IMG/VR virus record: IMGVR_UViG_3300005758_000229
Location: 1 to 45,103 of that record
Length of the DNA: 45,103 nucleotides
Source of the DNA: a virus
Taxonomy: Duplodnaviria; Caudoviricetes
Reading direction: 5' to 3' (one strand)
Each line of letters starts with the position of its first letter. The first letter of the stretch is position 1. The position numbers were made by a program, and so were the translations under genes. The notes beneath the pieces were generated by a model, which saw nothing but the letters and a program-made list of their open reading frames with translations, was not told where the DNA came from and searched no databases. This document shows, piece after piece, positions 17,939 to 44,524 of the stretch.

Positions 17939-20900
17939 TTATCTCCGGTATTTTGGCAACCCTTCCGGCTTAGGAGGCGTCCCCTTTTTGGGGGTATCAA
18001 CATCCTGCAGCTCGTTGGACCAGCCGGTATCGTTAGTCGCAGCCACGGCTACGGCGCCGACGGCCGGGTGCATAGCAGACCCTGCGATCACGGCAGCGCC
18101 CTTGATCGGGGCTACGGCAGCCCTGGCGGCAGCCTTCTTAAGGGCAGCCTCCTTCTCGGCCTGGGTCTTGGTGTCGTCCATGGCTAGCTCGATGGCCTTC
18201 TTGCCGACACGGCCTACGCCGACCGCGGTCTGACCGGCGACGCCGCCTGGCGGCTGATCGCGCGCGATATACTTGGTAGCCATTTCGAGCTTGGGCCCGA
18301 ACATGCCGGCGAAGGAGGAGGCGTTGAACAGCTTGTAGATCCAATGGTCCTTCTTGCGCTTCTCGGACGACTCCGTCGGGAACAGGTAGTCCTTGCTTTC
18401 AAACAAGGCGCCCATGGCGACGACGGTCAGAGGGGACAGCATGAGGGGGAGCATCATGTTGATCCGCTGGATCGCCGGCATGTTGTTGGTCGTGATCGCG
18501 CGCTTGGCCATGCGATACATGCGGTCGGTGACCTCGGAGAAGTAGGAGTAGCTGAAGCTCATGAGCTGCAGGGCCAGGCGCCCCAGGACGGCGTCCTGGA
18601 ACACCGGCTTGTGCGCCCGGTTCGCCCGGACGGCAGACTGATGGCTGAACCGGATCTGGGCTTCCTCGTATAGGCGGGCCATCTCAGACCCGTCGGTCAG
18701 CATGGCCATCCGCGCAGCCCGGTCCTTGGTCTGCTTGAGCGTGGCGCACCAGGCGGCGAAGGCGATCTGCTTGGACTTGGGGATGCCAAGCTCCAGCAGC
18801 GCTTCCTCGGCCGTGCTGCGCGTGTCGAACTTGAACAGCCGCGGGATGTAGTGGCTGCCGTCCAGCATGCCGGCATGGTCCAGGATGTAAGCGTGGCCCA
18901 GGGCGTGGGAGGCCTGGAGCTTGGCGTTCTCCGTGGACTCCATGAGGTTGGCCTGGTAGACGCGGTTCGTGATCCAGCGCATGGCCGGGTTGGCTTCCTC
19001 CATGCCGTGCTCCATGGCATGCATGCTCATCCAGGCGTCGTCCAGGGAGTTATGGATAGATCCGATGTGCTCCCCGTATTCCTGCCAGAACGTCGGCCCG
19101 ACGTGATCGCCCAGGACCGGCAGCATCTGCACCAGGTTGCGGATGAACCGCGCCCAGGTTTCGGCGTAGGCGTTGACCGTCCGGAACGGGTTACCGACGG
19201 TAGATCCGCGGATACCCATGGCCGAAGGTTCAAACAGGTTGTTCATGGCGCTCTTACCCATGGCCGCGGCGGCGGTGTATAGGTTGACCGTGTCCATGAA
19301 CATGCGCTCGGAGTTATCCAGGGGCGTCACGCCCAGGCCGGCGGCCAGCTTAACCAGCTGACCCATCTCGTTGATCGTCTCGATCGGGACGCCGTCGGCT
19401 TCCATGGCGTTGGCCATGGCTTCCCACTTCTCGCCTTCCGGTCCGAAGCGCCGGACGAGCTCGGCGCGCTTGACCGCGCTGCCGATGTAACGGCTGATCA
19501 CATAGAACGGATCCGGGGTCTGCCACTTGGCCATGATCCCCTGCGCCTGGCGACCGAACACGCGCTCCTTGGAGCTGTTCTCCGTGGCGCTGTCCCGGCC
19601 GCTGGTGAAGATGCTAGCCCATTCGGCGTCGCCCATGCCCCTGGTATGGGTCCGATACAGGGCAGCCGCGGCGGCGGCGGCCTTGGCCTGGATCTCCTGG
19701 GGCGTAAGGTTCGGGTCCTGGGACAGCTCGATCTCGTAGGCCCTGGTCGCGTCCGCGATAAACGCGGTCCGGTTGGCCGTGATCAGCTCGGAGTTGTAGA
19801 CCGCCGGGAAGTATTGCTGGACCTGGCCCATGTTCTCGCCGGCTGCGGTCCGGTAGTCGTGCAGCTCCTTGAGCAGATCGATCAGCTGCGTGGCCGCGTG
19901 ACCGGCGACGCCAGGCTGAATGTTGGTCCGGCCGGTGATCTGATCGACGAGCTCGCGGTAGAACTGCTCGCGCTGCTCGCTGGTCATACGGCTGAGCTGA
20001 TCGCGCAGCGGGCGCATGATCTGGTTAAACTTGTTCTGATACTTGATGCGCGCGCTCATGATCGCCTTGGGCAGATCGCGATCAGAGGACGGGTTCTCCG
20101 TTCCTGGGCGGGTGTGGATAATGTCGGAGACAGCCCGGACGGCAGCGCTGCCGGTGCGCTCTGCGTTCTGGTGCGCCTTGGTGCTGATGCCGTCGAAGTA
20201 ACGACCGCGCAGGACGTCGCCTACCCGGCGAGCCATGTCGTCGGCCGTGGCCGGCGGGTTAAGCGGAGCCGGCGCCGGGCTGGTGGGCGTGGTCGGCGAG
20301 GGCGGCGGCGGGGTCGGCGGGATCGCGTTGAACAGCTTTGGTCCGGCAGGGCCGTTACCCTGGACCTCTCGCAGCTTCTCCAGCGTCTCGGCTTCAGCGG
20401 CAGCTTGCTGCTCGCCGGTCTGCTCTGCCTGGCCGTAGTCGGCGCCTGGCTCGTTTGCCTGGGGTGTAGCCTGGGACGTAGCCTGGGTATCTCCAATCAC
20501 GGTGACGTCGTTGGCTCCGTTGTCCTTGAAGCTTTGGATGGCTTTATCGACTCTGAAGTCGGCGCCAGGCTTGCCTGTCTTGAGAACCGTAATCACATGA
20601 AGCATCTTGCGATTGCGACCACCAACCCGGAGAACAACGGTCATGCCGGTCGTCTTGGAGTATACGTTGATTGCATCAACCTGGCCGTTATCCATAGACA
20701 CAAGCGCGTGTGTGGCGTCTGCCATTATTTTTCGGATGGCACCAAGGTGGTCGTTTTGCTTCCAGGTCGTATCAGAAGCCAACGCGTCGAGCTCCCATCC
20801 GTGCTTCCATGACACATGCTCTAGGCCAAACCCAGCGGAGTTTTGACCAACGTCTTTATGTTTCTTGGTATCTTTTTCCCAATCAAAGTTACCGTGCATG

Positions 20901-23900
20901 CCGGTTCCTTGTCTGCCCTGCGTGATGTGGACAGGCAGATCAAGCAGCGCAGCCAAGTCGCCCAGCTTGCCGGCCAACCCTTGGATCGAGGTAATCCGCG
21001 GCAGATCAATCGGATTGCCAGACTCATCTGCTACCAGGAGGGATGAGTCTCTGGTAGGACCGACACCAATCTGGCTCTGAGGTATCACCCCAGGGTCCTC
21101 GGTCATTTCGCCATACTTGCTTATCCTGGGGCTGAGCTGTTCGTCCCATAGCATCTGTCGTCCCGTTTCAACCTGTAAGGCAGACGGGGGGATAGGCGGG
21201 TCCGTGCGGTCGCTTGCGCTGTCGCTTTTCAGTAACCCGGTTTTCTTTCCTTGATGCCTTGCTACGGACTCTGGCGTTCCGGCTTGGTTCTCCGGCTTGA
21301 TCGGATCCTGGCCAGGATCGCGCTTGGAGAACAGGGGCATGCTTTCATTTGAATAGGTGGCAGCGTCCGTCACCGGGTCGCTGGCGCGACCCTGGGCGCG
21401 CGCTTCATTGGCGTCCTTGGCTGCTTCCTGGACGTCCATCTCTACCGTGTCAGTCCGGGTATCGGGCATGCCGACCTCCTTGCCGGCAGCGTATGCCCGG
21501 ACATAGCCCTGGGCGATCGCCCGGACGTCACCAGGCCGGATCTCAAGAAGCTTGGATAGTTTTTCCATTCCAAGGTCGAGGGCCATCAATCTGGCATAGC
21601 CTATGGCGCGCATGGCCTTCCCGGCCAGGGGTCGTTCCCCACCTTCGCTTCTAGCGTAGGCCATGCGAATGATCGTAGCCTTGATCCACCGGACGATCAT
21701 AGCAAACAAGCCATCCTTGGGGGCGTTGACGTTAGCTTCGCGTCTGGCCATCACGTTCATGAGATAACCAAGAGTTTCCTCTCGGAACACGCGCATGAAC
21801 TGATTGATCTGCTTGTCAGTAAAACCTTCGGATTTAAGTATATTCGTAAGGCGTTCTTCGGTATAGCGCGTCCGGGAGGTGTATAGCCCCTGGCCGACCT
21901 TATTCATGATCCTTTTGAAGTTGGGATGGTTGCTGGCCACTACGGCAAACGCATCGGCCATGGCTTGGTGAGCCATGATCCTGTCCATGTCGCCGGCTTC
22001 ACCCTTCTCGACCAGGTCGCTCAGCTCTGCGAACAGGTCGTTGACCAGGTCTGTGTCCTTGCCGATGCCCATGTGGACGCCGATCTCATGCTTGATCAGC
22101 GCGTCGATCTCCTCCTTGGAGATAGCGTCGCCTACGAAATAGGTAGCCTCCCGGTTGTCGCCAAGGACAACGGCATTAAACTCTCCTTCGGATGCCTCCA
22201 GCGGGCTGATGCCAGGGATCTCTGCGCGGTCCCTAACCAGGACCAGGCGCCCATTTTCCATGAGTAGCTTGCCAAGCGGATGAGCCTCCAGGTATGCCTT
22301 GGCCTCATTGTAGCCAATGTCGCGCATGGCCTTGACGATCTTGTCCAGGTGGGGAGGAAGCCCACCCTTCGACAGGAGCAGGACCTTGTCTGGGTTCTTC
22401 TTGAAGTAGGCTTTGACTTGATCCAGATCCATGCCCTCCAGATCCTTGGCCAGCTGTTCGATCTCCGCGTCGCTGCCCTGGGTCCGGTTAAACAGCTCCG
22501 GCATGCCGTCGCCGGTGAAGTCGTAGCCCTTGACGCGATCGACCTCGACGCCGATGTATTCGGCCAGCTCCTGCTTGACCTGTTCCCGGAACGTCGGGTC
22601 ATTGATCCGGCCGGCCAGGGACACGCGGACGACGTCCTCGGTAGCGTCGATCCGGCCATGCGCAGCGCCGGCCAGGAGGCCTGGGAAGAAGGCCTCCTCC
22701 CAATCCAGGTGGGTGACGTTGGCGCCGATCATGTCGTATTCGTCCATCAGCTTGGACCTAAGCTCCTCGGCGTTGATAACCTGGAGCTTGCCCTGCTTGT
22801 CGTAAGCCCAGAGCCAGGTCTTTTCCCGGTTCTTCTTGCCGTGCTTGTGGCCGACGTCGGTCCACCATTGGATCCGGCGGGCGCCGGGCAGCTCGTTCTT
22901 GGCGCGCAGCTCAGCCTGGCGCTTCAGCCAGGCCTGGCGACCGCCGCCAGGGACAGCCTGGTTTTCGCCGTCGTCATACGCGGCGCCGGGATCATCCATG
23001 GTCGTTTGGTTTTCCGGGTCCAGCTCGGCTTCCGGATCTCGACCGGTAGGAGGCGGGTTGAGCTCCCGGTCGGCAGCAAGCTCCGGGTAAGGATGGCCCT
23101 GCGCCCTGTGCTTCTCGACGATCTGCTGCCGCCTGGCCTCTTGTCTTGCCCGGCGCTCCTGGGCGCCAGGTCGATTGTCGAAATCGCTCTGGCGCATGAA
23201 CTCCAGCATGATGTTAAACTCAACGTTGTTCTTATTGTCCGGCAGCGTTTTGCGGAAGGCGACCCGTTCGGCCGGAGACATGGACATAAACCTACGCACA
23301 TCAGCCTCGGAAAACGCTAGGCCTTCATAATTTTCCGTGCTCTCATAACCGGCCGCCGGCTCCTCGATCAGAGTGCCGGTCCGGCCGAACGTCATGACGC
23401 TGGCGCTGCGCGGGGTCCTCAGCTTGAAGTGCTTGGTGGCCTCGACCTTTAGGTTCTCGATAGCTTCCGTCAGATCGTCTGCCAGGTTGCCGTCCTCCAG
23501 GACAGGCTTGCCCTGCCGGTGTCGTTCCATGCCGGGCGTGAAGCTCATGACCAGCTTGCCGTCGCGGTTCTCGATCCGGCCCATGCCGATGGCTTCCATG
23601 AAGCCGTTGTGATCGCGGCCGATACCTCCGAACTTGGCGTTCAAGAATACAAGACCATGCGTGACTGACTCCGGTCTGCCCTTTGCCCACGGGCCGTTGA
23701 CCTGGGACAGATCAGACAGGTTCTCCGTGATGTGCACCTTGCCTCGCTTATCGATGAAATACAGGTAGGTGTTGTCGTAGTAGGCCTTCCTTTCTTCGGG
23801 GGAGGCGAACTCGCCCTGGCCGTTGCGGCCCGGACCATGCCCGATGTTTAGGTAGGTTACCGGAAGCTGGGCGGGCTGCTGCTTGAGCTTGGCTTCCCTG

Positions 23901-26900
23901 GCGCCGCCTGGGATCACCGTGTTCTCGCCGTCGTCGTAGGCCGCGGCCGGATCATTCAAGCTTCCGGTGTCTTGGCTCTCAAACCAGGCGTCAAACGCTT
24001 CCATTTCTGCCGTGTTAATGGCGTCGTTCTGGGCGTCGGTAGGGTTCTCGCCGGCTTGTTCGCGCAGATCTGCTGAGCTGGACGCTGCGGCGGCAGCCAG
24101 ATCGGCCAGCTGCTTATCGTTTAGCAGCTTAAGGCGATCATCCATTCCGGCTTCAGCCATGGACTTGTAGTTGTCAATTAGGCCAGCCTCGTAGCTAGAC
24201 GGGGTTTTCCCGTATTCTGCGCCAGGATCCAGGGCTACGTTCGGATCCAGGGTGGTCTTGGTATAGGCAGCCGTGCCGCCCTTTATGATGTTAAGCGCAG
24301 CGTCAGCCATTTCCTTTTGGCTCATGCTAGAGGAACCTGGGATAGCCAGGAGCTCCGTGCTGCCGGCCGGGAAGGCTCTGACGCGCGTAGCCACGGCTGC
24401 CGGGTTGATCACCGATCCGGTAATGAAACGCTGCCCCATGCGTCGCAAGCGTTCGCCGCCCTCGACATACATGATGCTGCCAAGGCCAAGCTTCTGCAGA
24501 TATGTATCAACATGGCTCATGCCGACCTTGGTGGTAAGGGTCGGGAACTCCGGTGTGCTGGCATACCCGCGCATGAGATCCAGGTGAGCTACCTCGCGCG
24601 TAGTCCCGTCCTCAAAAACGGCGTCGATATAGACATAGTCCTGGGCTTCGTAATTACCGATCGGATCTCCGTGGCTCTCGTAGCGCAGCCGGAGGTTTGA
24701 GATCTTCTTCTTACCCCGGCTATACGTTCCGTTGTCATCCCATCCGTCAACCGGGTAGCCATCCGGGAAGCGCTTATTGATGCGCTCCATGATCGTGGCC
24801 ATGTCCTGGCTGGCGCGCTTGGTGATGAACCCCTGGGAAGCCAGGAGGCCGTCGTCATGGTTCGGGACAGGTCTGCCTGTCATCCGGGCCATGTCGGCAG
24901 CAGAAGGGATAGGCTCGGCCTTGAGGACCTCAGCCATACCTTCCGCGTCCGGCGCACCCTCGCCGACCTCTAGATCATTTTTTTTTTTAGCCGCTTGGTC
25001 TACGACGTCGCGGAGGGTCTGGGGCTCGCCCTGGGGCTGGCCGCCTTCCGGATCGTATTCGGCAGCCGGCTCATTGAAGTCGCTGCCGTAAGTGCGAATG
25101 TCAAGAGAACGGTTTTGGCCTCCGGCGCCGAACGCATCCAGGACATTGATCTTAGTAGCACCAGCCACTCCGCTGATGTTTTGAATGACCAGGCGGGCGT
25201 TGGCGTCATCCAGGCCAGCGGTATAAATCATCATGTTGACCGGGTTGGCCCGGTCGATGCCGGCGACATACCGGTTAAAGCCGGTCTGTTCGGTGCCGGG
25301 GATCTTGGCCTTCATAGCCCGGAGCACATCGGCAGCCAGGGGGATTGTGGCAACCATGCGGTTGCTGTTGTCCAGGAGGATGATACCGGGCTGATCCGGG
25401 CCAAAGATGCGCTCGGCCTCAGCCATGGCATCCGTAGGGTTGCTGAACTGCTTGGCGTTCTGGCTGACGCGGAACGCAAACATGCGTTCGGTGATCGGAA
25501 CCTTGAACTTACGGGGGGCAGCCTTGATCGCCATGTTGCTCTCGATCCGGCCGGATGGGGTCATCTGGGCGAACCTGGTGCCGGCGATGGCCATGGTGCC
25601 TTGGTATTTGAGGTTCGCAGCTTCGACCAGCTTCTGGATGTTGCCGCCGGCGCTAATGTCGGCCGGAGACAGGGTGGGCTTACCGGACGGGTGGTTATGG
25701 ATAAACCAGACGCCGGCTGCGCCAGGGGTGCTGGCTGCGGTCCCGATAAGGATGCCAGGGTTGAAGCCGCAAGACGCCGGCTGGGAAAGCATGTGCTCGG
25801 CAATCTGGATCGGACGGCCGTTCTTGTCCGTGATCAGCAGGATCACCTGTTCCTGGGGGCGCTTGCGCAGACCAGCCACGACGTGGGCTGCGTCCTCGGC
25901 GCTCTTGACGAACTCGACGCCGGACATGACGTGGCCGGTCGTGGAGTGCTCGACGAACTGATCAAGCATGGCGTCGGACAGACCGAACTGAGCCATCTGC
26001 TCGCCGGTAAGGCGACCGAACGGAAGGGTGGTATCGAGCTTCGTCGGGAACACCGACGGGTTCGGGGCGGCCGGTTTCTTGCGCGGGGCGCGGGGCTTCT
26101 TGATAATGGGCTCGGCCGGCGTGGCGTTCACCAGGCCGGTGTCGGGAGTGGTGATCCCAGGGGGGTTGACCCTGGCGCCAGCTTCGCGCTCCTGGCGGGC
26201 GAACTCTGCGCCGGCGTTAGGATCTTCCGGGTTGGTTTCGCCGACGCCACCTTCCTGGAGGCCGTTTCGGACGATGCCTTCGATGCCGGCACCGCCATCC
26301 TCGCCGCCGTCGGCGCGCTGCGTGGCCTTACGGTTGGCCATGACCTCCGGATAGTCCTGGGCAGCCTGTTCTTCGCCGCCCTCGATCGGAGCCGGATCAT
26401 ATTCCTCGCCACCTTCGCGGAAGCCCATGCGCTCACCGGTCGGCAGCCTGGGCGTCGTGTTGGCGCCGCCAAGCGTGTCCTGCATAGGGCCAAAGTGGTG
26501 ACCGAAATTACGCTGGTTGTTGATCGTGTCCAGGACGTCGATCTTGTATCTGACGGCCATGTCACGAACGTTGCGGTTCGCGTTCACGGCTTCCTGGCTG
26601 TCGTTGCTGGAGTCGCCCACGCTGATGATGATCTGGTCAGCGTTGGCGCGCTCCATGACCGTTAGGATCCGGGCGAGAGGGGAATTATCCTGGGCGGTGG
26701 ACTCGACGTCGATCGTCGAGCTGGTTGTCCGGGGAAGGCGCTGGGTATTGCTCTGCGCAATACCCATGGTTCCGCGCTTGTTGGTGACCGTCGCAAGCGC
26801 GGTCATCTCTGCCAGGCTTAGAGGCAGGACGCCCATGATCCGGCCGCCCTTATCAAGGAAAGCGATGCCGGGCTTACGGGCGAGCAGCGGGACGATGGCG

Positions 26901-29011
26901 CGGACCGCATCGGTGCCATTAGCAATCCTGGGAGCAAGGGCGTTGCCGCGGATCTTGAACACGCGCTCAGTAAGCGCGACCGGGTAGCCGGCGGTCAGAT
27001 CGCCGCCAGGAGTGTCCTCGGCCAGGGTGATCGGCTTAGACAACGCTTCGTCGCCAGGGTAGGTGTTGAGGAACTTTGCGGTATCCTTGTCGCCAGGGTG
27101 GAAGATGTAGCGAGGACCGTAAGCGCCTTCGCCGCGGGCGCCAGGATCGTTCTGGGCGTCGCCAACGACAAGGCTGCCGGCAAATTGAACGCCGACGCCT
27201 TCAAGGAGCTTCTGGATAGCGACCGCGGCCATCATGTCAGCCGACGAGAACTTCATGGTTCCGGACGGGTGATTGTGGACGACGTAAACCTTACGGCAGC
27301 CAGGGGTGCCGGCAGCGACACCGGCCATGATGTTGGAGTAGTATTGGGTTGCGCCCATGCCACCTAGGGTATGGCGCAAGACGCTGATCGGCTTGCCGTT
27401 CTTATCGGCAAGAATGACGACCATATTCTCCTGGGCCTGGTTGCGCAGGAACTCATAGGCCAGCGCGGCCGCGTCGGCCTCGTTGTCGATCGTAGGCTTA
27501 AACCACCTAAGGACGCCGACCTGGGCGTGTTCGACGAACTGAGATAGGATGGCCTGGCTGACGCCGATCTTCTGCAGCATGCTGGCCGGAATGGCCTTGG
27601 CGTTCCTGTAGCCCTTGCCGCCGATAGAAAGGCTGCCGTTGGAGACGATCGGATCGGCCGGCTTGGCTTCCGTAAGGGGAGAACCGGTGAAGGCGGGCTC
27701 AAGCTCCGGGGTTTCTTCGGGAACCTCCTGGGGCTGTTCGATCGGATCCGACTCCGGAACCTCCTGGGGTTCGACGCGAGACGGGTCATACGGGCGGCCA
27801 GGATCAGCCTGGGCGGCCGGGGGCTGCTGCTGAGGGGCGGGCGCCGGGGCGGCCGGGGCCGCCGGGATACGCGCGCGCAGCTCTGCGATCTGGCGCTGCA
27901 GATCGGCGACGACGGGGTCTACCGCCGGCGCAGGAGCCGGTCCAGCAGCGGGCGCAGGAGCGACAGGAGGCTGGGCTTGGGCTTGGACTTGCTGAGCCGG
28001 AGCTGCTGCGCCCGGACCGCCGCGCGGAGCTTGAGGTCCGGCGGGTGCTTGAACACCACCCTGGATGGCTTGCGGGTTGACATAAGGGGAAGCCTGGGGC
28101 GCCGCCTGGGGCGCTGCAAGACCGGAAGGGATACCCGACGGGGTCGGGAGCTGGGGCATCGGGGGCAGCTGGGGCTGGCGGGCGCCCGTGCCAAAGGTGG
28201 CAGCAGCCGGGTTGCCGGCGATCCCCATCTGCTGGAGCTGGTTTGCCCAGGAGTCAAAGGTGGGGGCGTTAGCCAGGTCAACGCGAGCCTGGGCTTCCGG
28301 CAGCAGCTGAGGGGTGCCGCCAGGGGCAAAGTTAGCGCGGGAGTCGGCGCCGGCATACTGAGGCAGGATCTGCGGGCCGGTAGGCGCCGTCAGCTGGGGC
28401 ATAGGCGGCAGCTGCGGGACGCGCGGCGCCGGCATGCCAGGCTGAGCCATGGCCGGGGCCTGGGGCGCCTGGTTGACGCCAAGGCCACGGGCTACGAGAT
28501 CAGAAATAGTGGTGGCCCCGGTGATCGGAGCAGCGCCCTGGGGCGCCGGCTGAACGGGCATGCCGGGCATGGGAGCTTCGGGCTCCATGGTCATGGCGCC
28601 GGTTTCAGCTCCAGGCCCCATAGCGCCCTGGAGCTCCGGAGCCGGCTCAAGACCGTAATCAGCAAGACCACCGGTGGGCTGCGCAGATTGCGCGCCGGCG
28701 CTGCCGAACAGTCCGGCGAGAGAAGAAGGAACACCGGAAGGGATGCCAGGCTGCTGCGGCGCGATCGGGCTAGGCAGCGCAGCTTGAGAAACACCGGGCG
28801 AACCAAACGTGGGGATCGCGAATTGATTAGAGGCTGCTGTGCCGCGCTGCGCTGCAGCGACGATCTGCGCAAGGGCTCCGATCTGACCGGCGACAGGCGC
28901 GTTGCCTCCAGGGCTAGACGGCTCCGGCGTCGGAGCTACAGGAGGAACGGGAGGCAGGGCGCGCTGATTGGTCGATCCTTTCCCCGAATTCGGATTGATG
29001 TTTAGAGCCAT
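17939..29011 (-). CDS. Giant (3690 aa) polyvalent internal virion / DNA-ejection protein with RadC-like JAB, GNAT-like, zincin peptidase and PBECR-like domains
   Basis: Last gene of the internal virion block. HNHPSG..S.AD twice (27260-27277, 25682-25699), YLQKLGLGSIMY (~24480), HEIGVH...EE (22073-22090), GFGLEHVSWKH (~20801-20833). P/Q/A-rich N-terminus and a helical C-terminal ~800 aa. Confidence 0.85.
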   Translation of the reverse strand: MALNINPNSGKGSTNQRALPPVPPVAPTPEPSSPGGNAPVAGQIGALAQIVAAAQRGTAASNQFAIPTFGSPGVSQAALPSPIAPQQPGIPSGVPSSLAGLFGSAGAQSAQPTGGLADYGLEPAPELQGAMGPGAETGAMTMEPEAPMPGMPVQPAPQGAAPITGATTISDLVARGLGVNQAPQAPAMAQPGMPAPRVPQLPPMPQLTAPTGPQILPQYAGADSRANFAPGGTPQLLPEAQARVDLANAPTFDSWANQLQQMGIAGNPAAATFGTGARQPQLPPMPQLPTPSGIPSGLAAPQAAPQASPYVNPQAIQGGVQAPAGPQAPRGGPGAAAPAQQVQAQAQPPVAPAPAAGPAPAPAVDPVVADLQRQIAELRARIPAAPAAPAPAPQQQPPAAQADPGRPYDPSRVEPQEVPESDPIEQPQEVPEETPELEPAFTGSPLTEAKPADPIVSNGSLSIGGKGYRNAKAIPASMLQKIGVSQAILSQFVEHAQVGVLRWFKPTIDNEADAAALAYEFLRNQAQENMVVILADKNGKPISVLRHTLGGMGATQYYSNIMAGVAAGTPGCRKVYVVHNHPSGTMKFSSADMMAAVAIQKLLEGVGVQFAGSLVVGDAQNDPGARGEGAYGPRYIFHPGDKDTAKFLNTYPGDEALSKPITLAEDTPGGDLTAGYPVALTERVFKIRGNALAPRIANGTDAVRAIVPLLARKPGIAFLDKGGRIMGVLPLSLAEMTALATVTNKRGTMGIAQSNTQRLPRTTSSTIDVESTAQDNSPLARILTVMERANADQIIISVGDSSNDSQEAVNANRNVRDMAVRYKIDVLDTINNQRNFGHHFGPMQDTLGGANTTPRLPTGERMGFREGGEEYDPAPIEGGEEQAAQDYPEVMANRKATQRADGGEDGGAGIEGIVRNGLQEGGVGETNPEDPNAGAEFARQEREAGARVNPPGITTPDTGLVNATPAEPIIKKPRAPRKKPAAPNPSVFPTKLDTTLPFGRLTGEQMAQFGLSDAMLDQFVEHSTTGHVMSGVEFVKSAEDAAHVVAGLRKRPQEQVILLITDKNGRPIQIAEHMLSQPASCGFNPGILIGTAASTPGAAGVWFIHNHPSGKPTLSPADISAGGNIQKLVEAANLKYQGTMAIAGTRFAQMTPSGRIESNMAIKAAPRKFKVPITERMFAFRVSQNAKQFSNPTDAMAEAERIFGPDQPGIILLDNSNRMVATIPLAADVLRAMKAKIPGTEQTGFNRYVAGIDRANPVNMMIYTAGLDDANARLVIQNISGVAGATKINVLDAFGAGGQNRSLDIRTYGSDFNEPAAEYDPEGGQPQGEPQTLRDVVDQAAKKKNDLEVGEGAPDAEGMAEVLKAEPIPSAADMARMTGRPVPNHDDGLLASQGFITKRASQDMATIMERINKRFPDGYPVDGWDDNGTYSRGKKKISNLRLRYESHGDPIGNYEAQDYVYIDAVFEDGTTREVAHLDLMRGYASTPEFPTLTTKVGMSHVDTYLQKLGLGSIMYVEGGERLRRMGQRFITGSVINPAAVATRVRAFPAGSTELLAIPGSSSMSQKEMADAALNIIKGGTAAYTKTTLDPNVALDPGAEYGKTPSSYEAGLIDNYKSMAEAGMDDRLKLLNDKQLADLAAAAASSSADLREQAGENPTDAQNDAINTAEMEAFDAWFESQDTGSLNDPAAAYDDGENTVIPGGAREAKLKQQPAQLPVTYLNIGHGPGRNGQGEFASPEERKAYYDNTYLYFIDKRGKVHITENLSDLSQVNGPWAKGRPESVTHGLVFLNAKFGGIGRDHNGFMEAIGMGRIENRDGKLVMSFTPGMERHRQGKPVLEDGNLADDLTEAIENLKVEATKHFKLRTPRSASVMTFGRTGTLIEEPAAGYESTENYEGLAFSEADVRRFMSMSPAERVAFRKTLPDNKNNVEFNIMLEFMRQSDFDNRPGAQERRARQEARRQQIVEKHRAQGHPYPELAADRELNPPPTGRDPEAELDPENQTTMDDPGAAYDDGENQAVPGGGRQAWLKRQAELRAKNELPGARRIQWWTDVGHKHGKKNREKTWLWAYDKQGKLQVINAEELRSKLMDEYDMIGANVTHLDWEEAFFPGLLAGAAHGRIDATEDVVRVSLAGRINDPTFREQVKQELAEYIGVEVDRVKGYDFTGDGMPELFNRTQGSDAEIEQLAKDLEGMDLDQVKAYFKKNPDKVLLLSKGGLPPHLDKIVKAMRDIGYNEAKAYLEAHPLGKLLMENGRLVLVRDRAEIPGISPLEASEGEFNAVVLGDNREATYFVGDAISKEEIDALIKHEIGVHMGIGKDTDLVNDLFAELSDLVEKGEAGDMDRIMAHQAMADAFAVVASNHPNFKRIMNKVGQGLYTSRTRYTEERLTNILKSEGFTDKQINQFMRVFREETLGYLMNVMARREANVNAPKDGLFAMIVRWIKATIIRMAYARSEGGERPLAGKAMRAIGYARLMALDLGMEKLSKLLEIRPGDVRAIAQGYVRAYAAGKEVGMPDTRTDTVEMDVQEAAKDANEARAQGRASDPVTDAATYSNESMPLFSKRDPGQDPIKPENQAGTPESVARHQGKKTGLLKSDSASDRTDPPIPPSALQVETGRQMLWDEQLSPRISKYGEMTEDPGVIPQSQIGVGPTRDSSLLVADESGNPIDLPRITSIQGLAGKLGDLAALLDLPVHITQGRQGTGMHGNFDWEKDTKKHKDVGQNSAGFGLEHVSWKHGWELDALASDTTWKQNDHLGAIRKIMADATHALVSMDNGQVDAINVYSKTTGMTVVLRVGGRNRKMLHVITVLKTGKPGADFRVDKAIQSFKDNGANDVTVIGDTQATSQATPQANEPGADYGQAEQTGEQQAAAEAETLEKLREVQGNGPAGPKLFNAIPPTPPPPSPTTPTSPAPAPLNPPATADDMARRVGDVLRGRYFDGISTKAHQNAERTGSAAVRAVSDIIHTRPGTENPSSDRDLPKAIMSARIKYQNKFNQIMRPLRDQLSRMTSEQREQFYRELVDQITGRTNIQPGVAGHAATQLIDLLKELHDYRTAAGENMGQVQQYFPAVYNSELITANRTAFIADATRAYEIELSQDPNLTPQEIQAKAAAAAAALYRTHTRGMGDAEWASIFTSGRDSATENSSKERVFGRQAQGIMAKWQTPDPFYVISRYIGSAVKRAELVRRFGPEGEKWEAMANAMEADGVPIETINEMGQLVKLAAGLGVTPLDNSERMFMDTVNLYTAAAAMGKSAMNNLFEPSAMGIRGSTVGNPFRTVNAYAETWARFIRNLVQMLPVLGDHVGPTFWQEYGEHIGSIHNSLDDAWMSMHAMEHGMEEANPAMRWITNRVYQANLMESTENAKLQASHALGHAYILDHAGMLDGSHYIPRLFKFDTRSTAEEALLELGIPKSKQIAFAAWCATLKQTKDRAARMAMLTDGSEMARLYEEAQIRFSHQSAVRANRAHKPVFQDAVLGRLALQLMSFSYSYFSEVTDRMYRMAKRAITTNNMPAIQRINMMLPLMLSPLTVVAMGALFESKDYLFPTESSEKRKKDHWIYKLFNASSFAGMFGPKLEMATKYIARDQPPGGVAGQTAVGVGRVGKKAIELAMDDTKTQAEKEAALKKAAARAAVAPIKGAAVIAGSAMHPAVGAVAVAATNDTGWSNELQDVDTPKKGTPPKPEGLPKYRR

Positions 29012-29078: not shown

Positions 29079-31430
29079 TTACCTGTCTCCTCCGTAGCTG
29101 CGGTCCAACGGATGGTAGTAACGGCCTTCTCCCTTGGTGTAGTCAAAGCCCTGGCGCAGACGATCTATGTCGCCCTGGAGTGACGGGATAAGCGGGCTGA
29201 CCGGGACGTTGCCCGGACGGACGGCCATGAGCCTTTCATGGTCTAGCGCCTCCTGGAGCGCGGCCAGGGCGCTCTGCTTTTGCTTGATGTTGGCCCGGCG
29301 AATGTCCTGCTCATGGGACATTATATCGTCCTTGTTGCCCTTATAGCCCTTGATGAAATAGCGCCAGGCGTAGCCGCGCATGCTAGGAGGGTATCGTTTA
29401 GCGAACGTCTCAAACTGTTCCAGGATCTCGCCGGCCTTCTGAATGGCAGCCTTAGCCCTGGCTGCCGGCATGCCGGTGTTCTTCTCGATCTCGGCCGCAA
29501 CCTGGTCTAGCCCGGACTCACCTTCGGCCGCCTTCTCCTGGATGATCTGAAGCGGGTTATCGATGTTGGACTTGCCGGCGCCAAACGCCGAACCGGCGCC
29601 CATGAGGCCGCCGACCATGAACGACGACAGCGCCGTCTTAAGGTCAACGTCATCACCCATGACCGTGTTGGTAATGATGTCGGTAAGGCCTTCTTCGGTA
29701 GCTTCCCACCAGGTATCAATAGATCCGTGAATTACCCTAGGTAGCAGGATCTTTTTGTAGATGCCTCCCCGGAACGTCTCAACCGGCCTCATGACCATGG
29801 CCGGCACCGGGCGCAGCAGAGATCCGGATGTTCCAGGCGCTTGCATGAACTTAGGTAGCTTAGACTTGCCCCAGGAGGTTAGCTTATCGCCGGCCTGGTT
29901 TAGGACGACGGCCGTAGCTCCCTCTGCCAGGCCGCGCTGCGCGCTCTCCTTGATCATGGCGTCGATCTGCCCCATGAAGCCGGCAGGATCGCGGTTTGCT
30001 ATCTCGTTCAGCTTAGCCTGTGCTGCAGCGAACTCCGGGCTATCTGGATCTGACAGCTGGGATGTGTCTATGCCTTGCTCTCCAAGCCACTTGCCAAACG
30101 CCTGGTTAAACCCGGAGCCGGCACTAAGAATAGCCGTAGACGTTCCCATGGCTGCCGGTCCTACAACGGGCGCTGCTGGGCCGCTGGCAAGGCCGGCCAG
30201 GGTTGTGGCAAGCATAGTCGCGCCGGTGTTAGGCGCAGACTCCGCAAGCTGCTGCCACATGACGTTAAACGCACCCGTTTTGCCGTATTCATCTACGACG
30301 TCGCCGTATCCCATTCCTTCCTTGTTATACAGCTTCATGGCTTCCGACGTAGGCGACCAATAGCGCGTGCTGGCTTCGCGTTGACCGACGGCCTTTGCGC
30401 TTTTCTTGAAATTATCGTTAGCCTCTCCGGCTAGGATCTCATCTACCTTGGCCTGGATCTGCTGATCGTTCATCGAGGCCAGCTGTTCCGGCGTAAGCGT
30501 CAGAACGTAGTTAGCCACCTTGGCTAGTCCGCTGTCATTGAAATTAACTGAGCTGCCTGCGATCATGTTGACCGGATCATACGCGTATCGAGCCAACTTC
30601 TCCCTGTCTTTAAAGATCTCCAAACCCATCTGGCGTCGAGCTTGCTGCGCCCTAGTGTCACGCTGGAACTTATCCCTGGCTTCGATTATGGCGTCTGCCT
30701 CCTCCTTGGCTTTGACGGCAGCCAGGTAGCGCGGATGGTTTCTGGCGTTCTGAGTATTCTGGGTGTAGCTGGCGTAGTTTGGGTTATAAAACCCAAAACT
30801 ACTACCCATACCCGTAGGCATGCTATCTGAACGCATGCCTTGGGCGACGAGCTCTGCCAGGACGGCAGCAGGATCTTCAGTCGGAAGAACCATGCCGGCC
30901 TTAGCAGCTTCATTAACGGCGTCGGTAGTCTCCGGCGCACCAGCCTTACCTTGCAGCGCAGCGGCCAGGGCAAGCTTATCGCGCATGGCGCTCTGCATGG
31001 TCCAGCCCTCAGCTGCGCCGGCTACCGAATTCAAACCGCGCATGAAAGCGTTACCGCCGCCGGCAAACAATGGATCTGCGTAGCCAAGCCACCCCCAACC
31101 TCCAACGCCGGCCTGGGGTGGCTTAGCCTTGGCTGGACCAAACTGAAGCTGGTTGTCCCTAATAAACGCGCCTTCCTTAGGTCTATAAACGACCGGATAC
31201 TTGTCGCGCATGCGAGCCAGGGCAGCTCGGACGTTGCCGGCAGTAGTCGGTAGACCCTGCTTACTTAGCTCGTTTTGAACGTCTACGATCTCAGCTGGCT
31301 CGACCCAGATCACCTCCGGAGGACCTCCAGGGTCTGCAGATCCGACAGGCCAGGCCTGGTAGTTTTTGCCGTCTCCAGGCTGCAACAGGGGGTTAAGCTT
31401 GCCCTTGTCGTCTGTATATCCGGAGGCCAT
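29079..31430 (-). CDS. Internal virion / ejection protein
   Basis: Ala/Gly-rich helical protein with AESAP, EATEEG and hydrophobic Gly-rich segments. Position in the ejection module. Confidence 0.7.
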   Translation of the reverse strand: MASGYTDDKGKLNPLLQPGDGKNYQAWPVGSADPGGPPEVIWVEPAEIVDVQNELSKQGLPTTAGNVRAALARMRDKYPVVYRPKEGAFIRDNQLQFGPAKAKPPQAGVGGWGWLGYADPLFAGGGNAFMRGLNSVAGAAEGWTMQSAMRDKLALAAALQGKAGAPETTDAVNEAAKAGMVLPTEDPAAVLAELVAQGMRSDSMPTGMGSSFGFYNPNYASYTQNTQNARNHPRYLAAVKAKEEADAIIEARDKFQRDTRAQQARRQMGLEIFKDREKLARYAYDPVNMIAGSSVNFNDSGLAKVANYVLTLTPEQLASMNDQQIQAKVDEILAGEANDNFKKSAKAVGQREASTRYWSPTSEAMKLYNKEGMGYGDVVDEYGKTGAFNVMWQQLAESAPNTGATMLATTLAGLASGPAAPVVGPAAMGTSTAILSAGSGFNQAFGKWLGEQGIDTSQLSDPDSPEFAAAQAKLNEIANRDPAGFMGQIDAMIKESAQRGLAEGATAVVLNQAGDKLTSWGKSKLPKFMQAPGTSGSLLRPVPAMVMRPVETFRGGIYKKILLPRVIHGSIDTWWEATEEGLTDIITNTVMGDDVDLKTALSSFMVGGLMGAGSAFGAGKSNIDNPLQIIQEKAAEGESGLDQVAAEIEKNTGMPAARAKAAIQKAGEILEQFETFAKRYPPSMRGYAWRYFIKGYKGNKDDIMSHEQDIRRANIKQKQSALAALQEALDHERLMAVRPGNVPVSPLIPSLQGDIDRLRQGFDYTKGEGRYYHPLDRSYGGDR

Positions 31431-31433
31431 GGC

Positions 31434-32555
31434 TTAGCGCTTCCAGGGGGCGAAATAATCGAGGACGCGTTGATTAGGCGGGACCACAGTAGGCCCCAGG
31501 GACCATGCCTGTGGAGGAACCATGCCGCCGCCATACTGTCCGGTTAGCGTGTTGCGCCAAATAACCCTCGTTCCTGGATCCAAGCCGGCGGCCTTGGCTC
31601 TGATCTCATCCGGCGTTCCTTCGACCACGACGGCATCAGCTCCAGCAGCTTTCAAATTTTTGACAGCATCAAACGCTTCTTTCTTAAACTTGCGAACGCT
31701 CTCGGCTTCCCTGGCCTTTACAGGATCAGTTTTTCTCAATTTTTCGATCTCCTCAGCAGGAGTCATGGCATCGGTGTTCCTTGCAGCGGTTGCAGCGTCG
31801 TTGCCAAGAACTTGTGTTACGGCGGCTTGAGCAATCTCCTCGGCAGATCCGCGCAGCTTTGCTCGCCTTGCAGCCCTCATGATAAGGTTTAAGTCATTTT
31901 CAGACAGCGTCTTTCCCTCCGTAAGCTCATAAACTTGTGCAACAACCGCGTTGCGCAGATCTGCGTCGTTAGGAGGTTGATACTCCTTAACTTTTTTTGC
32001 TTCGCCGGCAAAGTATTCGTTGTCGGCCTTCTCCCTGGCGGCCTTGGCTTCGGCTTCGGCTTTCTGCCTGTTGGCGTTTGCTTCAGCTTCCTGCTTTTTT
32101 CTCTCTTTTTCGGCTGCAGCAGCAGCCCTGGCTGCAGCTTGAGCTTCGGCTGCTTTCTTGCCCTCCGGGGTTAGCTTGTAAATGTCTGCGACAGATCCGG
32201 CGTTGCCTGTGCGCGCGTTGAGCTCAGCAAGGCGCCTGGCTTGATCTGCCGTAAGTGAGCCTTTTGCTGCAGCCTCTGCCATGATCTTAGCTCTCTCCGC
32301 GTTAAACGCGCGCTGCACGTTGGCCTCAGAGATCCGATCAGCGTCATAGATCGCGCGAGCATCGGCAGCCTTGGCTTCGGCGTCGGCGTTCTTGAGCCTA
32401 ATCTCGTTAAGCTCGTTCTGGCTGCGCAGCTGCCCCATCCGTAGCTGCGTTTCCTGGTCCGGCATGAACAGCTTGGCGATACCTACGGCTGCGTCGGCCC
32501 AGGGATCCTGGCGCTGCTGCTGCCGCTGGGGGGTATATCCGGAATAGTCTGCCAT
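31434..32555 (-). CDS. Internal virion protein (coiled coil)
   Basis: Ala/Glu/Lys-rich helices. Position in the ejection module. Confidence 0.65.
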   Translation of the reverse strand: MADYSGYTPQRQQQRQDPWADAAVGIAKLFMPDQETQLRMGQLRSQNELNEIRLKNADAEAKAADARAIYDADRISEANVQRAFNAERAKIMAEAAAKGSLTADQARRLAELNARTGNAGSVADIYKLTPEGKKAAEAQAAARAAAAAEKERKKQEAEANANRQKAEAEAKAAREKADNEYFAGEAKKVKEYQPPNDADLRNAVVAQVYELTEGKTLSENDLNLIMRAARRAKLRGSAEEIAQAAVTQVLGNDAATAARNTDAMTPAEEIEKLRKTDPVKAREAESVRKFKKEAFDAVKNLKAAGADAVVVEGTPDEIRAKAAGLDPGTRVIWRNTLTGQYGGGMVPPQAWSLGPTVVPPNQRVLDYFAPWKR

Positions 32556-32559
32556 AAAG

Positions 32560-33294
32560 TTAAGCTACAGGAACAATCCAGCCTCCAGGTGTATTGCTTG
32601 GAACCATCCAACCGCCGGATGTTGCAGCTTCCATGGCTCCGGCCTTGGTTACGCCTTCGCTGCCAAGCTTGGCAAACTCACCAAGCCCAGCTCCGGCGTT
32701 GGCAGCAGCTGCGTAGCCGCCGGCGACCATGCCGACCTTGGATAGAATGTCTCCGATCGTCTTGAGCTGATCGCCCTTGTGGCTGGCGTAGTCCATCTCG
32801 GCGCCCATGGCGCTGGCAGATCCGCGCATGAAGTCGGCCGTAGTCCCTACGTTCGTCCGGGCGCGGGCGTTTTTGACGGCCATGGTCTGGGTTGCGTCTC
32901 CAAAGCTGGCAAGGGCTGCCTTGTTCTTGGCGTCCATAACAGAGCTCATCTTGCCGGCCTGGCCGCGCGCAGCGGACTCTCCGGAGACTACCTGGGGGGC
33001 TTCAGACCCGTAGGCAGACCCAACTTCTGCCCGCTTAACGGATCCAATGTCACCCTTATACGCCTCTGTGCGGCCGGCCTGGGCCTTAGCTTCGACCTCA
33101 GACCTGTTCTTGGCCGTGTTCTGGTTAAGAGATTGGGCAAAAATAGCGTTAGCCTCCTCGCGCAGCTTGGCCTGGCGCATGTTTTCTGCGGCCTGGACGT
33201 TGCCCATCGCGCGCTGCGCCTTCTTCTGGCCGGCGATCGACGCTGCCGTCCCGGCAGCGGTAGCAGCGATGGCGATGGTGGTAGGCTCACACAT
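32560..33294 (-). CDS. Internal virion protein (T7 gp14-like N-terminus)
   Basis: MCEPTTIAIAATAAGTAASIAGQ start and Ala-rich body. Confidence 0.75.
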   Translation of the reverse strand: MCEPTTIAIAATAAGTAASIAGQKKAQRAMGNVQAAENMRQAKLREEANAIFAQSLNQNTAKNRSEVEAKAQAGRTEAYKGDIGSVKRAEVGSAYGSEAPQVVSGESAARGQAGKMSSVMDAKNKAALASFGDATQTMAVKNARARTNVGTTADFMRGSASAMGAEMDYASHKGDQLKTIGDILSKVGMVAGGYAAAANAGAGLGEFAKLGSEGVTKAGAMEAATSGGWMVPSNTPGGWIVPVA

Positions 33295-33920
33295 TAGGTA
33301 TTAACGGTGCGCTCTTTGCCAGAGCTGCTGCCGCCTCCAAACGTAGAGTTTTTGAAGCCAAAGGCGCGCAGCCCCATGGCGTTAGGGTCGTTCATGCCGG
33401 CTTGGTTAGCTGCGCCCAGGAGGCCGGTAGTGTTCGCAAACAACTGCCCAAGGGCCGACGTCGTCGGCTGATTGGCCTGGATGGCAGCCCTGGACAGGGC
33501 GCTTTGCGCCGCAGCCTGGGCGTCGCCGGTCATGTTTAGCTGGCCGACCAGATCAGATCGTTCGCTTTCGATCTGGTTGCGCGCGAGCTGGGATGCCTCA
33601 AGCGCCTTGTTGCGCGCCTCAACGCGAGCTGCGGCCGTCTGCCGGTCGATCTCAGCCACGTTGCGGGTCTTTTCGCTGGAGTCAGTAAGGCCGGATCTGG
33701 CCAGGTTGAACGCCAGGTTGCTCTCAACCTGGTTGCGCTGATCCGCGATCTTAGGCTTGGCGTCTGCCATGTAGGCTTCCTCGCGTCGCTTGAAATAGCT
33801 GTCGTCGAACTGCTTGAACGTGTTGTCGATCGACGTCATGCCCTCCTTGATGCGAGCCTGGCGAGCTTGCTCATCGGCGCGCGCCATGGCGCCGTAGTCT
33901 GGTCCAGATGATCCGCACAT
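33294..33920 (-). CDS. Small internal virion protein
   Basis: MCGSSG start, helical, follows the GNAT-like gene. Confidence 0.65.
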   Translation of the reverse strand: MCGSSGPDYGAMARADEQARQARIKEGMTSIDNTFKQFDDSYFKRREEAYMADAKPKIADQRNQVESNLAFNLARSGLTDSSEKTRNVAEIDRQTAAARVEARNKALEASQLARNQIESERSDLVGQLNMTGDAQAAAQSALSRAAIQANQPTTSALGQLFANTTGLLGAANQAGMNDPNAMGLRAFGFKNSTFGGGSSSGKERTVNT

Positions 33921-33922
33921 GG

Positions 33923-34405
33923 CTAGGAGTGTGTTTTAGAGGGGTGTTTTATCCAGCTGAAAAGGATGAAGTCCTCTCCATTTTTTCCATACGCCTTGAT
34001 CTCCGACTCTTTGTCGGCGCCAAGCATGCGCAACCAGGCGTGAGCTACGGTATGCTCAGCGGAGGAATAACATTGTGCGCGATGTATGCCGGCGTCGTTC
34101 ATGGCTTGAGGCAGCGCGCGCTTGATGAACTTGGTTACCGACAGAGAAACCTCCGGCCAATTGTCGGTAGCAAACATCCATACCGACCAGACTCCGTCCC
34201 ACATCGGGACGACGCCGATCGCCGCGACCGGGACGTCGTCGTCTGTCTTGGCTACCCAGCCAAGCTCCGGGACGATCATGATGGAGTCAACCAGGTGCAC
34301 CGGGTTGTCCGTCCACCTGGTTGCGTAGATCTCGCGCCGGTCGAGCTCGCGCATGTTGTCGCATACATACAGCAGATCCGGCTCGTTGAGCTTAACCAGC
34401 TTCAT
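33923..34405 (-). CDS. GNAT-fold virion-assembly protein (T7 gp13 / internal virion protein A-like)
   Basis: NMRELDRREI, VWMFATD, AHAWLRMLG, YGKNGEDF. Lies immediately after the nozzle. Start ATG 34405. Confidence 0.8.
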   Translation of the reverse strand: MKLVKLNEPDLLYVCDNMRELDRREIYATRWTDNPVHLVDSIMIVPELGWVAKTDDDVPVAAIGVVPMWDGVWSVWMFATDNWPEVSLSVTKFIKRALPQAMNDAGIHRAQCYSSAEHTVAHAWLRMLGADKESEIKAYGKNGEDFILFSWIKHPSKTHS

Positions 34406-37274: not shown

Positions 37275-37277
37275 AGA

Positions 37278-37979: not shown

Positions 37980-37985
37980 GTCCGG

Positions 37986-38288
37986 TTAGGCCTTGGGCTC
38001 GTCTTTGGCCTTGGCCTCGATCTCGACGCCGACCTCGGAGAGATCAGACGGGACCTTGGGCATGGCGCCGGGGAAAACCTTTTTAAAAACGTCGTCGCCG
38101 TAGACGGACTTGAGGCGGTTAACCTCGTCGGCGTTGCTGCGCTTGATGGACTCGACGTCAACCGGGGCGACGACGGAGTCGCTGCCGTGGAGGTGCCGGA
38201 GCACGACGATCTCGGCCGCTGTCACGCGGCGCGTGGTCGTATGCTGGATGTTGCCGTTGAGGAGGATCTCTACGATAGCGGTCTGCAT
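37986..38288 (-). CDS. Conserved hypothetical protein downstream of capsid
   Basis: VTAAEIVVLRHLHG..V, EVNRLKSVYG, FPG. Confidence 0.7.
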   Translation of the reverse strand: MQTAIVEILLNGNIQHTTTRRVTAAEIVVLRHLHGSDSVVAPVDVESIKRSNADEVNRLKSVYGDDVFKKVFPGAMPKVPSDLSEVGVEIEAKAKDEPKA

Positions 38289-38326
38289 AGGCCTGGTAAT
38301 CTGTCCAGGCAGCCTGGACGCGCAAC

Positions 38327-38360
38327 AAAGAAAAGGGCCCTGGAGTTAACCAGGGCCCCT
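38327..38360 (-). terminator. Intrinsic terminator after the major capsid gene
   Basis: AGGGGCCCTGG-TTAACT-CCAGGGCCCTTTTCTTT. Confidence 0.85.
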
Positions 38361-38381
38361 GTTTGTAGGATCTAAGTCCGC

Positions 38382-39464: not shown

Positions 39465-39485
39465 GATGTTGTATCTGGTTCGTGG

Positions 39486-44518: not shown

Positions 44519-44524
44519 GGGAGA

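What the first reader, a model, noticed from the sequence alone, without database searches (positions are those of the whole stretch)
20430..26425. Recurring [ND]-[ED]-P-x-A-x-Y linker marks domain boundaries of the giant virion protein: candidate injected self-processing polyprotein
Seen: the same short motif recurs between globular modules: FNEPAAEYD (~25052-25075), LDPGAEYG (~24209-24232), LNDPAAAYD (~23933-23959), IEEPAAGYE (~23342-23368), MDDPGAAYD (~22973-22999), ANEPGADYG (~20432-20458), and a degenerate FREGGEEYD (~26396-26422). The nucleotides differ between copies, so conservation is at protein level. The same protein carries a zincin-like HEIGVH...EE peptidase. Established: Iyer et al. 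2017 (J Bacteriol) described phage polyvalent proteins and proposed that MPTase domains process them. Inference: the motif is a cleavage, docking or export signal that releases individual anti-defence cargos after injection, and it may mark where modules are swapped.
Basis: partly seen in the sequence, partly recalled or inferred. Interest (0 to 1): 0.85.

Follow-up and report, generated by a model that had tools for sequence, protein, structure and literature searches.

The report
Punctuated phage cargo polyprotein with slippage
A 3,690-residue phage protein, likely injected into its host, is a chain of swappable modules separated by a short repeated peptide that is likely a cutting site, and a conserved run of eleven A bases in its gene would also yield a much shorter version.

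Summary
The motif is real. Six [DE]-P-[GA]-A-x-Y copies (0.02 expected), plus two weaker ones, sit at module joints of a 3,690-aa polyvalent virion protein of a 45-kb podovirus-like phage. Relatives swap modules at these joints. Other lineages put a different repeated word before the same cargo (SE[GD]D x9-12, S[AR]RD x4-8), and SE[GD]D is kept through synonymous codon change. This fits a lineage-specific recognition site, most likely a polyprotein cut site (0.5); cutting is not shown. The link to the HEIGVH peptidase is unproven: a different word (LF[NS][RK]) flanks that domain, and two intact RadC/JAB domains are a rival reader. The word also resembles V-x-E-P-x-x-x-Y in linkers of bacterial UvrB, UvrA, MutL, DnaB and HsdR (25 of 38 annotated hits act on nucleic acids; no control), so a docking mimic remains open. 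New side finding: an A11 run about 30 codons after one motif is conserved in five of five loci, with stops in both shifted frames. One lineage is out of frame there, which suggests programmed slippage. This scan saw similar (Ser-centred) linkers before on other DNA.

The parts
17939..29011 (-). Giant polyvalent virion protein, 3,690 aa; last gene of the head, tail and internal-virion block
27692..29011 (-). Pro/Gln/Ala-rich low-complexity N-terminus (aa 1-440)
   Evidence: sequence
27785..27811 (-).
   Evidence: rank 7, expectation 0.58; DPGRPY also in P0002, P0003, P0007, P0010
27155..27487 (-). RadC/JAB domain 1 with intact HNHPS..S..D motif, followed by an apparently degenerate JAB-like half
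   Evidence: Pfam PF04002; invariant H,N,H,P,S,D
26396..26422 (-). Degenerate motif FREGGEEYD after JAB module 1
25586..25906 (-). RadC/JAB domain 2 with intact metal motif
   Evidence: E 5.7e-11
25052..25078 (-). Motif FNEPAAEYD after JAB module 2
24970..24988 (-). A11 run (24978-24988) with stops in both shifted frames (TGA 24975-24977, TAG 24970-24972); likely programmed slippage site giving a 1,345-1,346 aa product
24236..24871 (-). GNAT-like module
   Evidence: no Pfam hit itself; homologous to modules of P0012 and P0013 that hit PF00583 at E 0.007 and 8.8e-5
24209..24235 (-). Motif ALDPGAEYG
23960..24208 (-). Small module of about 83 aa, unknown; swapped as a unit
23933..23959 (-). Motif LNDPAAAYD
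23369..23932 (-). Copy 1 of an unnamed repeated domain (ENxxIPG ... GH ... H ... GR), present in 1-4 copies in relatives
23342..23368 (-). Motif IEEPAAGYE
23000..23341 (-). Module of about 114 aa (NYEGL...), shared with the SEGD clade
22973..22999 (-). Motif MDDPGAAYD
   Evidence: coil with pLDDT under 50 in the model
22496..22972 (-). Copy 2 of the unnamed GH/H/GR domain; predicted alpha/beta fold, invariant G, H, G, R
22481..22495 (-). Second junction word LFNRT, just before the peptidase
21362..22474 (-). Zincin-like metallopeptidase (MPTase) module: HEIGVH at 22073-22090, EE at 21776-21781
21317..21334 (-). Second junction word LFSKRD, just after the peptidase
20459..21316 (-). Variable module with GxGLxHxxxKH; PBECR-like RNase only by recalled motif
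   Evidence: no Pfam hit; the module at this position in L002 hits PBECR1 at E 0.018, under the cut-off
20432..20458 (-). Motif ANEPGADYG
20321..20335 (-). Second junction word LFNAI before the Pro-rich spacer and C-terminal domain
17942..20224 (-). Conserved C-terminal domain of a large unnamed family; likely the packaging or ejection anchor (inferred)
   Evidence: 2,367 representatives at E up to 1e-3; no informative Pfam hit
29079..44996 (-). Upstream virion block: terminase, P22-like portal, probable scaffold, SU10-like capsid and adaptor, two PHROG internal-virion-protein hits, four unannotated ORFs of 208-783 aa

Best explanation
The gene encodes a chain of swappable modules separated by a repeated peptide (hydrophobic-x-[ED]-P-x-x-x-Y); the protein is likely packaged and injected, and the peptide is likely a cut site at which a metallopeptidase in the same chain would free the modules. 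Shown: the word is real, kept at protein level, sits at joints, and is replaced in concert by another word in other lineages. Inferred: packaging (gene position), cutting (analogy with viral polyproteins and with Iyer's proposal) and the enzyme. Within my 0.5, about 0.28 goes to the HExxxH zincin, 0.17 to the RadC/JAB domains and 0.05 to another protease. Module swapping at the word would follow because only crossovers that keep a whole site give working chimeras. Separately, polymerase slippage on the A11 run likely makes a short JAB-JAB product beside the full-length one (about 0.75).
For: The same cargo start (ENxxIPG) is preceded by an EPxxxY-type word in 13 of 13 clade-A proteins, SE[GD]D or SQDD in 19 of 19 clade-B proteins, and SARDE in P0037. 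Clade B repeats its word 9-12 times; P0037, P0065 and P0069-72 repeat S[AKR][RK]D 4-8 times. SEGD copies use AGC and TCN serine codons, so selection is on the peptide. L142 has a hybrid VAEGDAEY. Homology breakpoints cluster at joints: 5 of 7 motif sites (random 2.2, P 0.04), and 8 of 10 with the LF words (random 3.2, P 0.002). The one modelled copy is low-confidence coil beside a folded core. Peptidase ligands H, E, H and EE are invariant in 7 of 7 aligned clade-A sequences, with three strands before the HExxxH helix. At deep level S-x-R-D words occur in two groups joined on the peptidase tree (FastTree 94) but far apart on the backbone tree. Iyer 2017 proposes MPTase processing (PMC5512222, sections 8 and 33).
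Against: No cleavage data. In clade A the zincin is flanked by LF[NS] or RR[LF]S, not EPxxxY, so there are two words. In clade B the peptidase diverges far faster than the backbone under a constant word. SEDD carriers form one side of a 99/97 branch on the backbone tree but are not a clade on the peptidase tree. Only 26 of 154 family members of 1,500 aa or more show a repeated word beyond the shuffle minimum, two of them domain repeats, although many others carry HExxH. Iyer notes that N4 virion RNAP, ArdC and TraC1 carry MPTases yet are packaged or transferred whole. Cutting next to Pro is unusual (own knowledge). The S-x-R-D sharing may simply be ancestral.
Confidence: 0.5

Rival explanations
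1. Docking tag: the word mimics a widespread bacterial short linear motif (V-x-E-P-x-x-x-Y) and ties each module to a host hub used by DNA-repair and restriction proteins, with or without cutting elsewhere.
For: A genome scan for V-A-E-P-A-A-x-Y estimated about 2,100 stretches and returned 120. Of the 83 frames of 100 aa or more sent to Pfam, 38 hit a family and 25 of these act on DNA or RNA: UvrB x7, type I HsdR x3, PIN x3, UvrA x2, DnaB, MutL, XseB, RecD-like and others. In these the motif lies outside the best Pfam stretch shown in nearly all cases. Clade-A copies such as AREPAAAY, VEEPGAAY and VSEAGAGY fit it, and Tyr is invariant in 16 of 16 aligned joints. One copy would sit in the tail of the short slippage product.
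Against: The pattern was recalled from memory and matches by construction; no control pattern was run; seven hits are one family. Orthologous joints in clades B and SARD lack Pro and Tyr, so docking is not needed there. No hub is known.
Confidence: 0.25
2. Handle for the phage's own packaging or ejection machinery (portal, small ejection proteins or the C-terminal domain), which grips the unfolded chain module by module.
For: The word follows the backbone lineage and recurs every 90-450 residues through the cargo section; in clade B it runs from the first cargo to the C-terminal domain.
Against: The motif occurs in no other virion gene of the window. Most family members have no detectable repeated word. 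No direct evidence.
Confidence: 0.12
3. Mere recombination joints: relics of duplication and gene conversion with no reader at protein level.
For: Modules are exchanged at the word, and some copies share downstream DNA because they belong to duplicated domains.
Against: Synonymous codons, including AGC against TCN, vary among copies while the peptide is fixed, and the word precedes unrelated modules.
Confidence: 0.1

Closest known systems
Phage polyvalent proteins with zincin-like MPTase (Iyer et al. 2017, PMC5512222)
   Same: Giant, mosaic, portal-terminase phage context; HExxxH MPTase variant (described there); RadC and GNAT-like cargo; proposed processing.
   Different: The main text has 0 occurrences of 'linker' and the sections read name no cut site. 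Section 33 lists RadC as found only in conjugative-element polyvalent proteins, while section 16 also names prophages; here two intact copies are in a phage virion gene. No slippage is described in the parts read. Its FTP supplements were not seen.
phi24B gp47, 2,811-aa ejection protein (bioRxiv 10.64898/2026.04.10.717836, passages)
   Same: Giant podovirus virion protein with polyvalent domains and a metallopeptidase, found by proteomics and proposed as an ejection protein.
   Different: LPD5/LPD1/LPD38 domains; the authors guess peptidoglycan digestion for the peptidase; no junction motif in the passages seen; homology to this protein was not tested.
tssM transcriptional slippage (PMC4256274, passages)
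   Same: An A11 run giving two length variants at about 15-25%; out of frame in Citrobacter tssM1, and in frame with a +1 stop in Yersinia tssM3, the same two states seen here.
   Different: A bacterial secretion gene; here a phage cargo gene, and slippage is only predicted.
Viral polyproteins and prohead-protease sites (T4 gp21 L/I-x-E, phiKZ gp175 S/A/G-x-E; recalled, no call)
   Same: Short repeated site with a hydrophobic-x-E core read by one protease.
   Different: No prohead protease was annotated in this window, and the word is confined to one protein.

Membership tests
Polyvalent proteins (Iyer 2017) | Encoded by a portal-terminase phage beside virion genes | tested here: met
Polyvalent proteins (Iyer 2017) | Two or more biochemically unrelated domains in one chain, mosaic among relatives | tested here: met
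   JAB x2, GNAT-like, peptidase-like; shuffled order
Polyvalent proteins (Iyer 2017) | Packaged and delivered with the DNA | not testable with these tools
   inferred from gene position
Zincin-like MPTase | HExxH or HExxxH helix plus downstream Glu, after a three-stranded sheet | tested here: met
   invariant H139, E140, H144, E242, E243; strands 87-90, 111-114, 120-124 then helix 130-144 in a model of mean pLDDT 59.7
Zincin-like MPTase | Structural match to solved zincins | tested here: inconclusive
   best Z 5.9, rmsd 4.6, 180 aligned; none at Z 8 or more; no useful sequence hit in PDB
RadC/JAB (PF04002) | Profile match and HxH..S..D metal motif | tested here: met
RadC/JAB (PF04002) | Peptidase or nuclease activity | not testable with these tools
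   Iyer proposes nucleic-acid processing
Self-processing polyprotein | Repeated site at module joints, selected at protein level | tested here: met
Self-processing polyprotein | Site co-varies with the embedded protease | tested here: inconclusive
   fits at deep level, not within clade B, single event
Self-processing polyprotein | Cleavage at the site | not testable with these tools
   needs experiment
Programmed transcriptional slippage (tssM type) | Long A run, conserved, with a defined product in the shifted frames | tested here: met
Programmed transcriptional slippage (tssM type) | mRNA length heterogeneity at the run | not testable with these tools
   no RNA holder listed; ribosomal shift or DNA phase variation not excluded
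PBECR RNase | Profile match of the module at 20459-21316 | tested here: inconclusive

The most novel reading that the evidence does not exclude
RadC/JAB, a protein family without a known substrate, is a peptidase that reads hydrophobic-x-E-x-x-x-x-Y. The phage uses it to cut up its own cargo chain, over-supplies it by A11 slippage, and with the same specificity cuts host proteins that carry V-x-E-P-x-x-x-Y in their linkers (UvrA, UvrB, MutL, type I restriction subunits, PIN toxins). In support: 28 of 32 proteins rich in hydrophobic-x-E words carry JAB, and the other 4 are short clade-A entries (only two sister lineages). Two unrelated viral giants found by VREPAAxY both carry RadC. Against: 4 JAB carriers lack the word.
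Probability: 0.12. Interest if true: 0.92.

Novelty: new variant of a known kind. Interest (0 to 1): 0.7.

Why it matters
Polyvalent proteins have been proposed since 2017 to be cut into working units, but the sections of that paper that I read and my searches name no site. Here are concrete candidate sites, three lineage-specific words at orthologous joints for cross-over tests, and two candidate enzymes. The word also gives exact boundaries of unnamed cargo domains, such as the GH/H/GR domain with no fold match. The A11 run would add recoding as a second way to split a phage cargo protein. The bacterial look-alike motif in DNA-repair and restriction proteins was not found in print by my searches and is worth study on its own.

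Tried and rejected
Complex prediction of peptidase + JAB2 + Zn + motif peptide: no answer, score 0.01, no evidence either way. Repeat domain: no PDB sequence hit, no ESM Atlas hit, best fold Z 4.6; the absence of a match does not show a new fold. Motif fragment: no Atlas hit; the motif profile against PDB gave only weak chance-level rows. Peptidase fold search was inconclusive; a Foldseek 'pdb' search was not obtained. A search for more clade-B peptidases returned only three known proteins. The idea that peptidase residues (AIK, E at +4) track SEDD was dropped: JAB1 and the C-terminal domain segregate as well (13 and 6 columns against 5). DPIGNY inside the GNAT-like module was rejected as chance (not in the top 14; changed in P0008 and P0010). 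No RNA holder listed; run X3 laid nothing and X4 does not span the A run. Host not determined. No tRNA. Literature searches without a paper on the motif; one search listed one Wolbachia paper (listing only); some searches gave background. The library lacks most subscription papers, and the supplements of Iyer 2017 were not seen.
Full report
Setting. The window is a 45-kb podovirus-like phage contig. On the minus strand lie terminase, a P22-like portal, an SU10-like capsid protein and adaptor, two PHROG internal-virion-protein hits, four unannotated ORFs and then the 3,690-aa ORF at 17939-29011. Pfam finds only two RadC/JAB domains in it. Relatives are present in freshwater metagenomes (runs X1 and X2 laid). 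The host is unknown.

All seven peptides are at the stated places. [DE]P[GA]AxY occurs six times against 0.02 expected. That pattern was chosen after the fact, so I built a matrix from 23 junction 9-mers of 14 relatives, anchored on the cargo start ENxxIPG and leaving this protein out. The aa 401 and aa 864 sites are not significant alone. At a 0.1-per-protein threshold it finds 0 sites in 19 of 19 clade-B proteins and one site among 119 other family members.

The motif marks joints. Thirty-eight homologues found through the C-terminal domain carry the same modules in different number and order. Ends of alignments at 45% identity or more cluster at the motif: 5 of 7 sites (random 2.2, P 0.04), and 8 of 10 when three LF[NS] sites are added (random 3.2, P 0.002). 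In an AlphaFold2 model of one module the motif is coil with pLDDT under 50 and the core is folded; only this one copy was modelled. The modules are two JAB units, a GNAT-like domain (by homology to Pfam-positive relatives), two small unknown modules, two copies of an unnamed GH/H/GR domain (no fold match), the peptidase, a possible PBECR-like domain (inconclusive) and a C-terminal domain with 2,367 representatives.

The word is lineage-specific. The same cargo start is preceded by an EPxxxY-type word in 13 of 13 clade-A proteins, by SEGD, SEDD or SQDD in 19 of 19 clade-B proteins and by SARDE in P0037. Clade B repeats its word 9-12 times, and six proteins repeat S[AKR][RK]D 4-8 times. Copies of SEGD use AGC, TCC, TCG, TCA and TCT for serine, and SEDD copies also vary synonymously, so the peptide and not the DNA is kept. 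L142 carries VAEGDAEY, between the A and B words, which suggests a shared hydrophobic-x-E core. A word that changes at all joints together implies a reader acting on all of them (inference). Only 26 of 154 family members of 1,500 aa or more show a repeated word beyond the smallest shuffle value, two of them domain repeats; my method misses degenerate words.

Which reader? The HEIGVH domain keeps H, E, H and EE in 7 of 7 aligned sequences and is modelled with three strands before the motif helix (mean pLDDT 59.7), as Iyer describes for HExxxH MPTases. The fold search was inconclusive. At deep level three word classes match three peptidase clades, and S-x-R-D spans two groups joined on the peptidase tree but distant on the backbone tree (FastTree only; this may be ancestral). 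Against the zincin: in clade A it is flanked by LF[NS] or RR[LF]S (11 of 15 upstream, 14 of 15 downstream). In clade B it evolves far faster than the backbone under a fixed word, and SEDD follows the backbone tree, although this is one event seen in JAB, peptidase and C-terminal columns alike. The JAB domains are the rival. Of 32 proteins with three or more hydrophobic-x-E words, 28 carry JAB and the other 4 are short clade-A entries; 4 JAB carriers lack the word, and these are only two sister lineages. Of 10 viral frames of 80 aa or more found by VREPAAxY, the two giants both carry RadC. Iyer suggests that RadC acts on nucleic acids.

A bacterial look-alike. I recalled V-x-E-P-x-x-x-Y from bacterial proteins and tested it. 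The scan returned 120 matches out of about 2,100. I sent the 83 frames of 100 aa or more to Pfam; 38 hit, and 25 of these act on DNA or RNA (UvrB x7, HsdR x3, PIN x3, UvrA x2, DnaB, MutL, XseB, a RecD-like helicase, another helicase, a methylase, a restriction-like nuclease and three regulators). One is ribonucleotide reductase and 12 are unrelated, four of them BCCT transporters. No control pattern was run. Searches found no paper on it. The phage word may therefore be a docking mimic, though clades B and SARD do without Pro and Tyr.

A slippage site. About 30 codons after FNEPAAEYD the coding strand has eleven A (24978-24988). It is the only run of 8 or more in the window, in a gene that uses AAA for 21 of 167 lysines. 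The same A11 is in L001, L009, L011 and L018, that is five of five distinct in-frame loci covering it, counting the window. One A more gives TGA at once; one A fewer gives ATG-ANN-TAG, the TAG resting on CTA or TTA leucine codons in the main frame. L142 and L144 have A10 and are out of frame there: the zero frame stops after 1,313 aa in L144, and the shifted frame runs on into the cargo. Contigs from two further studies span the run with no listed change from 24939 to 25021 while the flanks differ. This mirrors tssM, where A11 yields two variants at about 20% (PMC4256274, passages). I infer a short Pro-rich-JAB-JAB product beside the full chain; the level (polymerase, ribosome or DNA phase variation) is untested. 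Clade-B locus L007 has no such run.

Verdict. A real, ordered punctuation system in a polyvalent virion protein. A cut site is the likeliest role (0.5), docking mimic 0.25, packaging handle 0.12, neutral joint 0.1. It is a member of the polyvalent class by every feature I could test; it works like a viral polyprotein only by inference. Papers seen: PMC5512222 (abstract, passages, sections 6, 8, 33 and the stub of 30; supplements not seen), bioRxiv 10.64898/2026.04.10.717836 (passages), PMC4256274 (passages). Prohead-protease consensus sites are recalled. Earlier notes of this scan report Ser-centred linkers in other phage and Omnitrophota giants; I did not check them.

Noticed in passing
window 24970-24988 (-); L001:1077, L009:785, L011:5129, L018:3950; L142:7715, L144:8306: Conserved A11 run with stops in both shifted frames; A10 and out of frame in one lineage; likely programmed slippage.
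   Followed up: yes
L021-L140 (bacterial genomes): V-A-E-P-A-A-x-Y lies in linkers and tails of UvrB, UvrA, MutL, DnaB, XseB, HsdR, PIN and HTH proteins; a possible undescribed bacterial short linear motif; no control run.
   Followed up: partly
window 23369-23932 and 22496-22972 (-): Unnamed alpha/beta domain with invariant G, H, G, R and near-invariant GH, 1-4 diverged copies per protein in three lineages; no Pfam, PDB or Atlas match; may be an enzyme.
   Followed up: partly
L147:1-4239 (-), L162:1-5844 (-): Unrelated viral giants with RadC (L162 also ddrB-ParB and an HExxH motif) carry VREPAAxY and further VRE-type words after the JAB module.
   Followed up: partly
window 29079-31430 (-) against P0020 and L019:10001-20911: Clade-B giants begin with a hydrophobic Gly/Ala-rich region and carry the peptidase at the N-terminus; here a separate 783-aa ORF with similar composition precedes the giant. 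Homology not tested.
   Followed up: no
P0018-P0036, peptidase region: Clade-B peptidase domains diverge many times faster than the C-terminal domain and give an incongruent tree, which suggests swapping or an arms race.
   Followed up: partly
window 1-1785 (-) and 44525-45103 (-): Collagen-like tail fibre ORF at the left end; a Tyr/Ser/Gly/Cys-rich repetitive frame at the right end.
   Followed up: no
window 7721-15359 (-): Replication block: primase-helicase (AAA_25), Cas4-like exonuclease, SF2 helicase, Sak4-like protein; syntenic in L019 and L020.
   Followed up: no
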